Below are positions 28,195 through 31,136 of a DNA stretch of 32,433 nucleotides, piece by piece (the stretch's first letter is position 1; each line of letters opens with the position of its first letter). The stretch comes from Promethearchaeia archaeon (GTDB taxonomy: Archaea > Asgardarchaeota > Lokiarchaeia > Sigyniarchaeales > SOKP01), in contig JAWOCD010000091.1 of assembly GCA_046483985.1 (NCBI GenBank), positions 1-32,433 on the forward strand, given 5' to 3'. The translations under genes were made by a program, and so were the position numbers. The notes under the pieces were generated by a model. That model ran no database searches. It worked only from the letters and a program-made list of their open reading frames with translations, and was not told where the DNA came from.

Positions 28195-28882
28195 TTATGC
28201 TGTTTTCTCTTGAATAATAGTTTTCCCTTTCTCCAGTCCAAGGTGGAGCGCTTTTATGTTGAGATCTACGTCTCGAAGCCATTCTTTAATAACTTCTTCA
28301 TAATGTTCAATTTCTATGAACGGTAATTTTCCAGTTGCGATTGCAAACCCCAGCATGATGATGTTTACTTGCTGATTCTTATTAAATTCATCTAACGCAA
28401 TATCAGTCGCATTCATAAAATAGACCTCATCGGTATAACCCTTCAAAGTGCTTTCAATTTTCTCTAAGGAGGGATATTCCTCTAAATTAGCGCTGATCAT
28501 AACTCCAGGAATCGTTCGAGAGTTTACCACAAACGTAGTTTTTTCCGAGGCGAAAATGCCGCGACGCAGCGCCTCTGAGGGTTCAAAACAAATATAAAGA
28601 TCCGCGTCACCATAACAGATTAAGGGAGATTGTAGATTTTTTCTAGGATCCGAGAAAGGGTCTCTTTGATACCGAGTATGACTGGTAATGGCTCCCTCGC
28701 GTTGAGCAAGCCCGTGCATTAAGCGCTCATGCTTTAAATAAGCATTAAGATTCGCTTCCAAGGATTGTCTCAACGCTACTTTTTTGGGCAGCAAACTCGA
28801 TTAATCGTTTTAAGGTTATCACTCCTTGTCCCGCAGTTCCAGCAATAACAATATTAATAATATCTGTTTCTTTAAAGCCCAT
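28195..28882 (-). CDS. iorB: Indolepyruvate:ferredoxin oxidoreductase beta subunit, split into exon 1 (28882-28751) and exon 2 (28719-28195); 218 aa when joined
   Basis: Exon 1 gives MGFKETDIINIVIAGTAGQGVITLKRLIEFAAQKSSVETILGSE. Exon 2 gives MHGLAQREGAITSHTRY...ADL..FEPSEALR...NIIMLG. Joined, they form the IorB motifs G..GQG and SE-x-HG-x-AQR-x-G. The gene lies downstream of iorA. Confidence 0.92.
28720..28750 (-). other. Putative 31-nt bulge-helix-bulge (BHB) mRNA intron in iorB
   Basis: mRNA: GGA-AGCG-AA^U-CUUAAUGCUU-AUUUA-AAGCAUGAG-CGCU-UA^A-UGCAC. A 4-bp helix AGCG/CGCU is flanked by 3-nt bulges AAU and UAA. Cuts after the second nucleotide of each bulge restore GAA|AUG (E|M). Confidence 0.85.
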
Positions 28883-29174: not shown

Positions 29175-31136
29175 CTATATCTCTCGAAAAGGGACTGCTT
29201 GGTCAAGAGCGTTAATGGTAGATTTATGAATTGCGGAATTTGGACAAGCTTCGTAACAGACCCCACATCTGACGCACCTATCTTGATCGATTTTCATTGT
29301 TTCTTCCCCGTCCACGACGGTTCGCCTGATAGCCGGACAGCTCAGAATGCGAGCACATTCATAACACATCTGGCATCCAGATATGTAATAAATATTCTCT
29401 TGAACCTTTTTTTCTTGTTCCATCAATTTCCGTTTCTGAGACATCCTCCACCGGTGGGCTTGGAGCGCACATTCTCTCTTTATAATTATTACCTTTAATC
29501 CCTTTTTACTTAACGCTTGATCAATCATCTTGGTTAAGTTTCGTGGATTATAGGAATCACCCACCCGTAACCAAGGGACTCCGATTGCCTTGCAAATCTT
29601 TTCGATAGAAAATCCTTTTTCAGTTAAATGGCGGAGTACATCGTCTTGATGACCCGTCATCGCGGTCCAAGAATTCTGGAAGATAATCAACAAAACATTA
29701 GAATCGTATCCTACCGCTTCTGCTAAGGGAGGGATCCCCGTATGAAAAAACGTAGAATCTCCGATCATCGCCAAGATTTTCTGATCGGCCTTTTCCGACA
29801 TTCCAATCGCGGCGCTTATCCCTCCGGACATGCAGATCACTAAATCACTGCATTCTTGCGGGGGAAAAAAGGACATAACATAGCACCCGATATCTCCGCA
29901 AACTACCGTATTTTCTAACCGGTTCGTCGCCTTTAAAATGGAATAGAGTGTTGCGCGTTCGGGACAGCCGGCACAGAAGGTCGGAAATCTGCTGGGAATA
30001 ATATCCTCATAGGAATCAAAATAGTCAATAGCTTGCATCATTTCTTTATTTGGCGGTTTATTGAATATTTTTGCCAAATTTTCTGCAACGAGTCCTGTCG
30101 AATATTCGTTATATTTTGGAAAATATTCTTGCCCGAGTATTTCAATATCAAGGTTATGATCTTGGGCAATTTCGGCTACCTTCACCTCCAAAAATGGTTC
30201 CAGTTCTTCTATGATGATTACCCGTTTCAAGTTTTCTAAAAATCCGATGATTTCACCTTCATTCAAGGGATATATCATCCCCAGTTTTAAAATGGGTACA
30301 TCCTCTAACTCTAATTGATTTAATGCTTCCATAGTATATCCAAAAGGCATACCACTGGTAATTATTCCCGTTTTATTCGTTCCTTCATACACTTTATTAA
30401 TATTTAGATTGGGAATCTCCTCGCTAAGTCTATCGATTCTCTCATATAATCGTTTATGGTTATTTATGGCATGCGGGGGAAGACTGTTGAATTTAGGAAT
30501 ATTCCTTTCAAATTCCCCATGCGGCTTTCCTTTTTGGAGAGGTTCCAAATTAACAAAACCCCTCGAATGTGCACTTCTAGTGGTAGTCCTTATCTCCATG
30601 ACGAGATCATGTTTCTCCGAAAGTTCAAATGCCAGTTTGGTGAAATCCTTACATTCTTGAGGAGTATGGGGTTCTAAACAAGGAAGATGGAGCATCCATG
30701 TATAAAAGCGATCATTCTGTTCTTGATGGGAGCCTAAACTTCCAGGATCTCCTCCCACTAAAATGACCATAGCGCCCGGATTAGGTCCATTTAATGCGAT
30801 AACGCTAAGCGGATCACTTGCAACATTTAACCCCACATGTTTCATAGGATTAAAACTTCTCACTCCTGTCCATGCCGCTCCAGCAGAAGCAGACGTTGCG
30901 ACCGCTTCATTTACCGCCCATTGATGGGTTAAATATTTTTTTAATTCTGGTTTCTGGTCCAATACTTGGTGGAAATATTCGCCAATATCAGAAGTGGGCG
31001 TGCCAGGATATTGTGAAACATAGGATACCCCAGATTCTAATGCACCTCTCACCACCGCTTCATTTCCAAGCATTAAAACTTTTCCTTCTTCTCGTATAAA
31101 TCGAGTATCTTTCTTTGGCAAATTTCTCACTATCAC
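29175..31136 (-). CDS. iorA: Indolepyruvate:ferredoxin oxidoreductase alpha subunit
   Basis: LMLGNEAVVRG, YPGTPTS, MKHVGLNVASD, FCAGCP, GDIGCY, IGDSTFFHTG, and two C-terminal ferredoxin motifs. Confidence 0.96.
   Translation of the reverse strand: MIVRNLPKKDTRFIREEGKVLMLGNEAVVRGALESGVSYVSQYPGTPTSDIGEYFHQVLDQKPELKKYLTHQWAVNEAVATSASAGAAWTGVRSFNPMKHVGLNVASDPLSVIALNGPNPGAMVILVGGDPGSLGSHQEQNDRFYTWMLHLPCLEPHTPQECKDFTKLAFELSEKHDLVMEIRTTTRSAHSRGFVNLEPLQKGKPHGEFERNIPKFNSLPPHAINNHKRLYERIDRLSEEIPNLNINKVYEGTNKTGIITSGMPFGYTMEALNQLELEDVPILKLGMIYPLNEGEIIGFLENLKRVIIIEELEPFLEVKVAEIAQDHNLDIEILGQEYFPKYNEYSTGLVAENLAKIFNKPPNKEMMQAIDYFDSYEDIIPSRFPTFCAGCPERATLYSILKATNRLENTVVCGDIGCYVMSFFPPQECSDLVICMSGGISAAIGMSEKADQKILAMIGDSTFFHTGIPPLAEAVGYDSNVLLIIFQNSWTAMTGHQDDVLRHLTEKGFSIEKICKAIGVPWLRVGDSYNPRNLTKMIDQALSKKGLKVIIIKRECALQAHRWRMSQKRKLMEQEKKVQENIYYISGCQMCYECARILSCPAIRRTVVDGEETMKIDQDRCVRCGVCYEACPNSAIHKSTINALDQAVPFREI

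What the first reader, a model, noticed from the sequence alone, without database searches (positions are those of the whole stretch)
28711..28765. Canonical BHB mRNA intron splitting iorB: candidate protein-coding-gene splicing in a probable Asgard archaeon
Seen in sequence: iorB starts at ATG 28882 and reads ...ILGSE, then S and an in-frame UAA. The rest of the protein (MHGLAQREG...) resumes in a different frame 31 nt after the Glu codon. The mRNA here folds into a strict BHB: central 4-bp helix AGCG (28756-53) / CGCU (28725-22), 3-nt bulges AAU (28752-50) and UAA (28721-19), an intron hairpin CUU(A)AUGCUU/AAGCAUGAG closing an AUUUA loop, and an imperfect exon-exon stem UCCUUGGA/UGCACGGG. 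Established: archaeal tRNA-splicing endonuclease (EndA) cuts between the second and third nucleotide of each bulge, and RtcB ligates the exons. BHB introns are typical of tRNA/rRNA and are known in mRNA mainly from crenarchaeal cbf5. Applying that rule removes exactly 28750-28720 and gives GGA AGC GAA|AUG CAC GGG, restoring the conserved SE-x-HG-x-AQR motif and a 218-aa IorB. The structure-predicted and protein-predicted junctions agree to the nucleotide. Inference: EndA-dependent mRNA splicing is required to express a core amino-acid-fermentation enzyme. It could be a regulatory checkpoint and one of a wider, unannotated set of such introns.
Basis: partly seen in the sequence, partly recalled or inferred. 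Interest (0 to 1): 0.95.

Follow-up and report, generated by a model that had tools for sequence, protein, structure and literature searches.

The report
tRNA-type intron splitting Asgard iorB
A 31-base insert shaped like an archaeal tRNA intron interrupts an oxidoreductase gene (iorB) of an Asgard archaeon. Comparison with relatives indicates it is cut out of the mRNA by the tRNA-splicing enzymes, a kind of splicing published so far for hardly any archaeal protein gene.

Summary
iorB (minus strand) reads 44 codons (28882-28751), then a 31-nt insert (28750-28720), then 174 codons in another frame (28719-28198).

[quoted passage not shown] Cutting after the second base of each bulge gives GSE|MHGLAQRE, the uninterrupted sequence of all 36 distinct intron-less orthologues.
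- **Conservation:** 18 other distinct Asgard iorB copies carry a 30/31-nt insert at the same site. 93% of pair cells are paired, 10 pairs show compensatory changes, and an exon base covaries with an intron base (U-A 12, C-G 6).
- **Selection:** exon 1 stays under purifying selection (pN/pS 0.14), and intron-bearing genes fix the synonymous codons the helix needs.
- **Machinery and spread:** the genome encodes EndA and two RtcB. I confirmed three more such inserts, in EF-2, a UDP-sugar dehydrogenase and an AMP-phosphorylase-like gene.

I read it as a real EndA/RtcB-spliced mRNA intron (confidence 0.85). A regulatory role has no support.

This scan has already reported such introns on other Asgard DNA, including iorB. 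The papers I could search confirm such coding-sequence splicing only for crenarchaeal cbf5.

The parts
28751..28882 (-). iorB exon 1, 44 codons (Met ... ILGSE); holds the AGTAGQG glycine-rich motif
   Evidence: Translation. Conserved in all 20 intron-bearing orthologues, pN/pS 0.145. Matches the N-terminus of full-length homologues.
28720..28750 (-). 31-nt BHB intron: third base of bulge 1, a 9-bp hairpin with one bulged A and an AUUUA loop, the 3' strand of the central helix (CGCU), and the first two bases of bulge 2
   Evidence: Single copy in the genome. Absent at exactly this point in 36 distinct orthologues.
28195..28719 (-). iorB exon 2, 174 codons plus stop (MHGLAQREG...)
   Evidence: Pfam POR PF01558, profile positions 29-173 of 173. 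NCBIfam IOR_beta positions 36-188 of 189.
28711..28765 (-). Whole BHB motif (h-B-H-B-h') including the exon-exon outer stem UCCUUGGA/UGCACGGG
   Evidence: MFE fold. Pair counts on 18 sequences: 93.3% paired against 19-48% for slid controls.
28753..28756 (-). 5' strand of the central 4-bp helix (AGCG, in exon 1; overlaps the Ser codon)
   Evidence: The third base of the Ser codon (C/U) covaries with the intron base (G/A): U-A 12, C-G 6, none unpaired. All 20 intron-bearing genes keep GGR-AGY-GAA, against 11 of 30 intron-less genes.
28722..28725 (-). 3' strand of the central helix (CGCU, in the intron)
28750..28752 (-). Bulge 1 (AAU); predicted 5' cut between 28751 and 28750
   Evidence: Unpaired in the MFE. 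The rule 'cut between second and third bulge base' is stated for cbf5 in PMC2738675.
28719..28721 (-). Bulge 2 (UAA); predicted 3' cut between 28720 and 28719
   Evidence: The junction equals that of intron-less orthologues.
29175..31136 (-). iorA-like alpha subunit (653 aa), upstream on the same strand; not interrupted
   Evidence: Pfam POR_N + TPP_enzyme_C + 4Fe-4S. NCBIfam IOR_alpha 547.8 bits, below the 650.9 cut-off.

Best explanation
The 31 nt at 28750-28720 are an archaeal bulge-helix-bulge intron inside the iorB coding sequence.

Proposed mechanism: in the iorB transcript, the exon bases AGCG pair with CGCU at the 3' end of the insert. Each splice site is then presented in a 3-nt bulge, on either side of that 4-bp helix. 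The cell's tRNA-splicing endonuclease (EndA, contig C32) cuts after the second base of each bulge. An RtcB ligase (two genes) joins ...GGA AGC GAA to AUG CAC GGG.... The result is an mRNA for a 218-aa IorB (POR gamma-type subunit) that works with the IorA encoded upstream. The intron is probably released as a small circle.

Shown: the anatomy, the exact agreement of the junction with intron-less orthologues, conservation with covariation, selection on both exons, and the presence of the enzymes.

Inferred: cleavage, ligation and constitutive removal.

The intron was most likely gained once near the base of this Asgard family's iorB and lost precisely several times. I see it as a tolerated passenger of the same process that fills this genome's tRNA genes and some other protein genes with ~30-nt introns, not as a dedicated regulator.
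For: 1. Anatomy: the MFE fold contains the 4-bp helix, both 3-nt bulges and the intron hairpin.
2. Junction: removing 28750-28720 gives GSE|MHGLAQRE. All 36 distinct intron-less orthologues read exactly this without interruption, as do 80 full-length database homologues with this Met at position ~45.
3. Recurrence: 18 distinct 30/31-nt inserts sit at the identical site in other Asgard MAGs from NCBI, JGI, ENA and Logan. This rules out an assembly artefact.
4. Covariation: 93.3% of pair cells are paired (shuffles 82.1 +/- 1.2, 0 of 500 reach it; slid registers 19-48%). 10 of 19 pairs have compensatory changes. The exon/intron pair at columns 15-45 is U-A 12, C-G 6, none broken. RNAalifold finds the same helices independently.
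5. Nearest relative: L104 (91% aa identity) differs at 5 of 31 intron bases. My reading of the sequence is that all five are in a loop or bulge or keep pairing.
6. Selection: exon 1 pN/pS is 0.145 and exon 2 is 0.20 among intron-bearing genes.
7. Codon constraint: intron-bearing genes all keep GGR-AGY-GAA (20/20), against 11/30 intron-less genes of the same clade (Fisher p = 2.5e-6, not corrected for relatedness).
8. Machinery: EndA (TIGR00324, 112.9 bits against a 59.6 cut-off) and two RtcB genes. Published work assigns Asgard archaea a broad-specificity (alpha-beta)2 EndA with the L1 loop (PMC5829648).
9. Same device elsewhere in this genome: EF-2 (AHID|HGKTT), a UDP-sugar dehydrogenase (GMGY|VGIP) and an AMP-phosphorylase-like gene (DKHS|TGGV, junction inside a codon). 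In each, exon 2 starts at Pfam profile position 11-14.
Against: - No RNA-level observation. No spliced form of an intron-bearing lineage turned up among database proteins or cluster members, or among JGI contigs for the 14 of 18 junction contexts that the search pattern covered; this genome's own junction was not among them.
- Total folding energy of the region is not exceptional (z = -0.3).
- The outer exon-exon helix has two mismatches.
- In 3 of 18 orthologous inserts (L008, L032, L039) the central helix has only 2-3 standard pairs, so those would need a relaxed-motif enzyme or may splice poorly.
- Only one EndA-type gene was detected by Pfam. The beta subunit expected for a broad-specificity enzyme was not found with these models.
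Confidence: 0.85

Rival explanations
1. Split gene. The insert is an intercistronic spacer; a 45-aa peptide and a 174-aa protein are translated separately and assemble without RNA splicing. The hairpin would serve mRNA stability or translational coupling.
For: Every one of the 18 inserts has an in-frame stop soon after exon 1, by my reading of the sequences. Exon 2 begins with ATG. Gene callers in public databases call exon 2 alone (41 of 120 best hits).
Against: - The ATG codes a Met that is equally conserved in intron-less genes, so it is not a new start.
- I see no Shine-Dalgarno-like purine run in the insert.
- A spacer would not need a 4-bp helix with exon bases, 3-nt bulges in exact register, or exon/intron covariation. 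It would not freeze synonymous exon codons.
- The same kind of insert elsewhere in this genome is followed by CAT or GTT, or lies inside a codon (EF-2, dehydrogenase, AMP phosphorylase). Separate translation is impossible there.
Confidence: 0.05
2. Conditional splicing. The intron is real, but its removal is rate-limiting and used as a switch on IorB production.
For: None direct. The cbf5 authors proposed a negative regulatory role for their intron (PMC2738675). In Haloferax, removal of a 5' UTR BHB intron seems to matter for expression (PMC7714728).
Against: - About two thirds of orthologues in the same family do without the intron, and both states occur within GTDB genera g3, g5 and g6. That fits a dispensable element.
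- Similar inserts sit in unrelated housekeeping genes.
- No sequence conservation beyond what the structure needs.
Confidence: 0.1
3. Decaying or inactive gene. The insert disrupts iorB and is not removed; the locus is a pseudogene, or only exon 2 is used.
For: The frame is broken. The public annotation of this contig gives a 188-aa product with a spurious N-terminus (P0123).
Against: Exon 1 has been kept intact under purifying selection in 20 diverged lineages (pN/pS 0.145 at pS 0.60). No other lesions were found. Exon 1 holds the glycine-rich motif of the POR domain, which Pfam places before position 29.
Confidence: 0.03
4. Translational bypass. The ribosome hops over the 31 nt, as in phage T4 gene 60.
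For: A stop codon and a hairpin lie right after the break, as in gene 60 (from my own knowledge of that system).
Against: There are no matching take-off and landing codons: GAA before the gap, UUA then AUG after it. The conserved features are those of a BHB, not of a bypass element.
Confidence: 0.01

Closest known systems
BHB intron in the cbf5 (pseudouridine synthase) pre-mRNA of Crenarchaeota (Watanabe 2002; Yokobori 2009, PMC2738675)
   Same: A short BHB intron inside a coding sequence. Cut sites lie between the second and third bulge bases and agree with the protein-predicted border. Presence is patchy among relatives, implying gain and precise loss. The host enzyme is a hetero-oligomeric, broad-specificity EndA.
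   Different: Different gene (iorB) and different phylum (Asgard/Promethearchaeota). Most cbf5 motifs are described as unconventional BHBs, whereas this one is canonical apart from two outer-stem mismatches. cbf5 splicing has cDNA and in vitro support; this intron has none yet. The cbf5 paper says no other archaeal gene had confirmed pre-mRNA splicing, whereas here several genes in one genome carry such inserts.
Non-canonical BHB introns of archaeal tRNA genes, including the heavily interrupted Asgard tRNA genes (preprint 10.64898/2026.10.13.758758; Marck and Grosjean 2003)
   Same: Same motif and same presumed enzymes. The ~30-nt size matches the first-stage notes on this genome's tRNA introns. 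[quoted passage not shown]
   Different: The host RNA is an mRNA, so the exon half of the motif must also encode protein; here it fixes the Gly-Ser-Glu codon choice. The preprint does not mention mRNA at all (0 occurrences).
BHB intron in the 5' UTR of Haloferax volcanii HVO_1309 (Schwarz 2020, PMC7714728)
   Same: An mRNA substrate of the archaeal splicing endonuclease, shown by circRNA-seq and in vitro cleavage.
   Different: It lies in the untranslated leader (46 nt), does not interrupt the reading frame, and the host is a euryarchaeon with a different EndA type.
Unconventional cytoplasmic splicing of HAC1/XBP1 mRNA in eukaryotes (IRE1 cut, RtcB or Trl1 ligation)
   Same: Protein-only, spliceosome-independent removal of a short intron from a coding sequence; a frame change upon splicing; RtcB-type ligation in metazoa.
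   Different: The nuclease is IRE1, which recognises two stem-loops, not a BHB cut by EndA. It is a stress-regulated switch. No homology of the introns is implied. The details of this comparison come from my own knowledge; abstracts of papers on the system were listed.

Membership tests
Archaeal BHB (splicing-endonuclease) intron | [quoted passage not shown] | tested here: met
   AGCG/CGCU with AAU and UAA unpaired in the MFE fold. The helix is fully paired in 15 of 18 orthologous inserts and has 2-3 pairs in L008, L032 and L039.
Archaeal BHB (splicing-endonuclease) intron | Flanking helices: outer (exon-exon, h) and inner (intron, h') | tested here: met
   Inner hairpin of 9 bp with one bulged A. 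Outer stem has 6 of 8 pairs. Across sequences, inner helix cells are 90.7% paired and outer helix cells 98.1%.
Archaeal BHB (splicing-endonuclease) intron | Cutting after the second base of each bulge yields the functional, uninterrupted product | tested here: met
   The junction equals the contiguous GSE-MHGLAQRE of 36 distinct intron-less orthologues. The rule itself is taken from PMC2738675.
Archaeal BHB (splicing-endonuclease) intron | Structure maintained in evolution by compensatory changes | tested here: met
   10 pairs with double changes. Covariation score 0.467 against 0.255 +/- 0.018 for shuffles, and at most 0.204 for slid registers.
Archaeal BHB (splicing-endonuclease) intron | Host encodes EndA and an RtcB-type ligase | tested here: met
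   EndA at C32:38299-38793. RtcB on C37 and C66. A beta subunit was not detected with Pfam models.
Archaeal BHB (splicing-endonuclease) intron | Spliced RNA, excised or circular intron, or cleavage by EndA actually observed | not testable with these tools
Indirect look-ups found no spliced form.
IorB / POR gamma-type domain (PF01558) | Match to the POR domain, split across the two exons in order | tested here: met
   Exon 2 matches profile positions 29-173 of 173, E = 3.6e-17. Exon 1 aligns to the first 44 residues of full-length homologues.
IorB / POR gamma-type domain (PF01558) | Equivalog-level assignment as indolepyruvate oxidoreductase beta subunit | tested here: inconclusive
   Best NCBIfam models are all IOR beta, but at 86-88 bits against cut-offs of 206-238. 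Only exon 2 could be scored. The neighbouring IorA scores 547.8 against 650.9.

The most novel reading that the evidence does not exclude
Routine, obligatory splicing of protein-coding mRNAs by the tRNA endonuclease/ligase pair is a general trait of this Asgard lineage, and its introns turn over quickly. In this genome iorB, EF-2, a sugar dehydrogenase and an AMP-phosphorylase-like gene carry such introns, and first-stage notes list more. For iorB the tree needs about 8 state changes within one family. At least some of these introns, possibly iorB's, may be spliced conditionally and so gate expression. That would be a prokaryotic precedent, in the closest relatives of eukaryotes, for genes that depend on intron removal.
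Probability: 0.15. Interest if true: 0.9.

Novelty: new member of a known kind. Interest (0 to 1): 0.74.

Why it matters
The mechanism, a BHB intron removed by EndA and RtcB, is textbook for archaeal tRNA and rRNA. In the papers I could search it is confirmed inside a coding sequence only for crenarchaeal cbf5 (PMC2738675; PMC7714728 repeats this in 2020).

This work adds a second, unrelated gene, in the Asgard archaea. The comparative evidence is unusually clean: the junction is exact, an exon base covaries with an intron base, and synonymous codons are constrained. Several other genes in the same genome carry the same kind of insert.

- **Annotation:** public annotations miscall these genes. 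The deposited product here is 188 aa with a false N-terminus, and about a third of the closest database homologues are exon-2-only calls. Metabolic reconstructions of Asgard MAGs may therefore score such genes as truncated or missing.
- **Evolution:** frequent gain and precise loss of mRNA introns in the sister group of eukaryotes gives a concrete system for asking how cells come to tolerate interrupted protein genes.

Tried and rejected
   - Substitute 1: I looked for near-identical full-length (spliced) and truncated protein pairs among 120 homologues. None reached 95% identity.
   - Substitute 2: I listed the members of 10 clusters of truncated calls. All were truncated.
   - Substitute 3: I scanned JGI metagenome contigs for the spliced junction, with a pattern covering 14 of the 18 intron-bearing exon contexts and not this genome's own. 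The 3 hits all belong to a lineage that genuinely lacks the intron (L073-L076).
2. Strict genome-wide BHB scan. It returned iorB alone, and I nearly concluded that the genome has no other case.
   - Other high-ranking candidates were false: PurB and a PfkB kinase are intact ORFs.
   - A C30 candidate reads through a ferredoxin Cys motif.
   - After the first-stage notes on this genome, I relaxed the outer-helix rule. The scan then recovered EF-2, the dehydrogenase and the AMP phosphorylase.
   - A looser pair-count scan gave 1,347 mostly spurious candidates and was dropped.
4. Mobile-element idea: the insert has no other copy in the genome, and the four introns share no sequence.
5. ARAGORN and Rfam found no RNA gene in the window.
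6. The argument 'EF-2 is single-copy, so splicing must work' was dropped, because a 34%-identical paralogue exists on C59.
7. Literature: six searches found no paper describing BHB introns in Asgard protein-coding genes. The library lacks most subscription journals, so this is not proof of absence.

Full report
**1. The observation**

On the minus strand an ORF starts at ATG 28882 and reads 44 codons ending ILGSE, then Ser and TAA. The rest of the protein, starting MHGLAQREG, is open from 28719 to the stop at 28197-28195 in a different frame. It matches the Pfam POR domain from profile position 29 to 173 of 173. The missing first 28 positions therefore correspond to the upstream piece.

- AGCG (28756-53) paired with CGCU (28725-22);
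- AAU (28752-50) and UAA (28721-19) unpaired;
- a 9-bp intron hairpin with one bulged A and an AUUUA loop;
- an exon-exon stem with 6 of 8 pairs.

The order h-H-B-h'...h'-H'-B-h is the topology of a tRNA-type BHB. The cut rule (between the second and third bulge base) is the one used and verified for cbf5 (PMC2738675). Applied here it removes 28750-28720 (31 nt) and joins GAA to AUG.

**2. Is it more than chance?**

The overall folding energy is ordinary (z = -0.3); the register is not.
- Only 0.12% of shuffled inserts give a 4-bp helix with the fixed exon bases plus three inner pairs at this exact position.
- I scanned the whole 4.06-Mb genome for canonical BHBs whose removal fuses two open frames of at least 40 codons with coding-like flanks. 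Of 221 candidates, iorB was the only one whose BHB is the MFE structure (-13.7 kcal/mol). The next best BHB-constrained fold was -2.9 kcal/mol, against an MFE of -6.4 for that site.

**3. Comparative evidence**

Searching 40 related genomes and the GTDB species collection with exon 2 gave 76 orthologous loci, 56 of them distinct. The relatives are Asgard MAGs labelled Promethearchaeota.

In 36 distinct orthologues the two pieces are contiguous and read GSE-MHGLAQRE (a few have A, T, Q, D, H or S at single positions). There is no extra base at the predicted junction.

In 20 distinct genes (18 distinct insert-plus-flank sequences) there is a 30- or 31-nt insert at precisely that point. These come from independent assemblies in NCBI, JGI, ENA and Logan, and 41 of the 120 best database homologues are gene calls that begin exactly at MHGLAQREG. 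An assembly artefact is therefore excluded.

On the 18-sequence alignment A1, the BHB structure gave these counts:

| Measure | Result |
|---|---|
| Pair cells paired | 93.3% |
| Column shuffles | 82.1 +/- 1.2, 0 of 500 as high |
| Registers slid by 1-3 columns | 19-48% |
| Pairs with compensatory double changes | 10 of 19 |

The most telling pair joins the third base of the exon's Ser codon to the second base of the intron's helix strand: U-A in 12 sequences, C-G in 6, never broken. RNAalifold, run without my structure, predicts the same helices.

The closest relative found (L104, 91% protein identity) differs at 5 of the 31 intron bases. By my reading, all five are in a loop or bulge or keep pairing; one of them moves the bulged base within the stem.

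**4. The gene is alive**

- Among intron-bearing genes, exon 1 has pS 0.60 and pN 0.086 (pN/pS 0.145). Exon 2 has pN/pS 0.20. Exon 1 is therefore still read as protein in the frame that only splicing connects to exon 2.
- The intron constrains the exon. All 20 intron-bearing genes use GGR-AGY-GAA for Gly-Ser-Glu. Only 11 of 30 intron-less genes of the same clade do; the others use TCN Ser, Ala, Thr or GAG (Fisher p = 2.5e-6, not corrected for relatedness). This is expected if AGYG must pair with the intron and AA must sit in the bulge.

**5. History**

On an ML tree of the joined protein, all intron-bearing rows fall in the clade of GTDB family f1 (50 rows, support 98/96). No member of families f2-f4 has the insert.

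Within that clade the state changes about 8 times (7-9 in bootstrap trees). Well-supported branches force at least 2 changes, and shuffled labels need 16.6 on average. Both states occur within GTDB genera g3, g5 and g6.

The inserts share position, length and stem-loop layout, so one gain followed by several exact losses is the simplest reading; repeated gains are not excluded. Exact loss is what replacement by a copy of spliced mRNA would produce, as discussed for cbf5.

**6. Machinery**

- The genome has one EndA-type gene: a 200-aa product carrying both Pfam domains, scoring 112.9 bits on TIGR00324 against a cut-off of 59.6.
- It has two RtcB genes.
- Kaneta et al. 2018 report that Asgard archaea have an (alpha-beta)2 EndA with the L1 loop, which gives broad substrate range (PMC5829648). 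I did not find a beta subunit with Pfam models.

**7. Not alone in this genome**

My strict scan had suggested that iorB was unique. First-stage notes on other pieces of this genome listed further candidates. I therefore rescanned with an energy criterion for the intron hairpin and a free outer helix. Three clear cases emerged, each with a 30-nt AT-rich hairpin insert and a 4-bp helix in register:

| Gene | Position | Restored motif |
|---|---|---|
| EF-2 | C115:48041 | AHID\|HGKTT |
| UDP-glucose/GDP-mannose dehydrogenase family gene | C45:48365 | GMGY\|VGIP |
| AMP-phosphorylase-like gene | C32:149458, minus strand | DKHS\|TGGV, junction inside a codon |

In each, exon 2 starts at position 11-14 of the relevant Pfam profile. 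These junctions cannot be rescued by separate translation of the two halves. This argues against the split-gene reading for iorB too.

The four introns share no sequence, and the iorB insert is single-copy. ARAGORN finds only 22 tRNA genes in a genome that is 97% complete. That fits the heavily interrupted tRNA genes described for Asgard archaea.

**8. What is not shown**

No RNA was examined.
- Three indirect look-ups for spliced forms found nothing.

Cleavage, ligation and the fate of the intron are therefore inferred. Nothing supports a regulatory role. The patchy distribution, and the occurrence of similar inserts in unrelated housekeeping genes, suggest a tolerated element.

The name iorB rests on the best-matching NCBIfam models (all IOR beta, all below the equivalog cut-offs) and on the adjacent IorA-like gene.

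**9. Comparison with what is known**

The closest precedent is the cbf5 intron of Crenarchaeota. It has the same motif, the same cut rule and the same patchy distribution.
- The 2009 cbf5 paper states that splicing of no other archaeal pre-mRNA had been confirmed, though others were predicted.
- The 2020 Haloferax study still cites cbf5 as the only other example and adds a 5' UTR intron.
- A 2026 preprint on Asgard tRNA introns does not mention mRNA.
- Six full-text searches found no description of BHB introns in Asgard protein genes.

This scan has already reported the same phenomenon on other Asgard DNA, including iorB in another genome; some of those notes report support from RNA-derived contigs. 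Those are unchecked AI notes, and I used them only as leads.

**10. Verdict**

- It is a new member of a known kind: a BHB intron in an mRNA.
- Confidence is 0.85 that it is a real intron spliced by EndA and RtcB.

Noticed in passing
G000 contig C115:48042-48071 (locus L097:243-272): A 30-nt BHB-type insert splits the EF-2 P-loop (AHID|HGKTT). Exon 2 starts at GTP_EFTU profile position 14 of 188. A 34%-identical EF-2 paralogue without this break lies on C59.
   Followed up: partly
G000 contig C45:48366-48395 (locus L098:217-246): A 30-nt BHB-type insert splits the NAD-binding loop (GMGY|VGIP) of a UDP-glucose/GDP-mannose dehydrogenase family gene. Exon 2 starts at profile position 11 of 187.
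   Followed up: partly
G000 contig C32:149428-149457, minus strand (locus L099): A 30-nt BHB-type insert splits DKHS|TGGV of an AMP/thymidine-phosphorylase-like gene. The junction lies inside a codon (phase 2).
   Followed up: partly
whole genome G000: ARAGORN detects only 22 tRNA genes in a 97%-complete genome, several with doubtful introns. This suggests that most tRNA genes are hidden by multiple non-canonical introns.
   Followed up: no
window 28195-28794, minus strand: The public annotation of this contig gives iorB as a 188-aa product (P0123) that starts inside or upstream of the intron in the wrong frame. About a third of the closest database homologues are exon-2-only calls.
   Followed up: yes
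alignment A1, columns 5 and 58 (window 28764 and 28711): Two exon bases covary with each other across the intron: the second base of the Val/Ala codon and the third base of a Gly codon (U-A 11, C-G 5). This may be structural or merely clade-linked.
   Followed up: no
loci L032:1453-1514 and L039:1453-1514: In these two related inserts the central helix keeps only 2 of 4 standard pairs (AGUG against CAAA), although the intron hairpin is perfect. They are either relaxed-motif substrates or impaired introns.
   Followed up: no
G000 contigs C37:24400-25707 and C66:103302-104609: There are two full-length RtcB genes in one genome.
   Followed up: no
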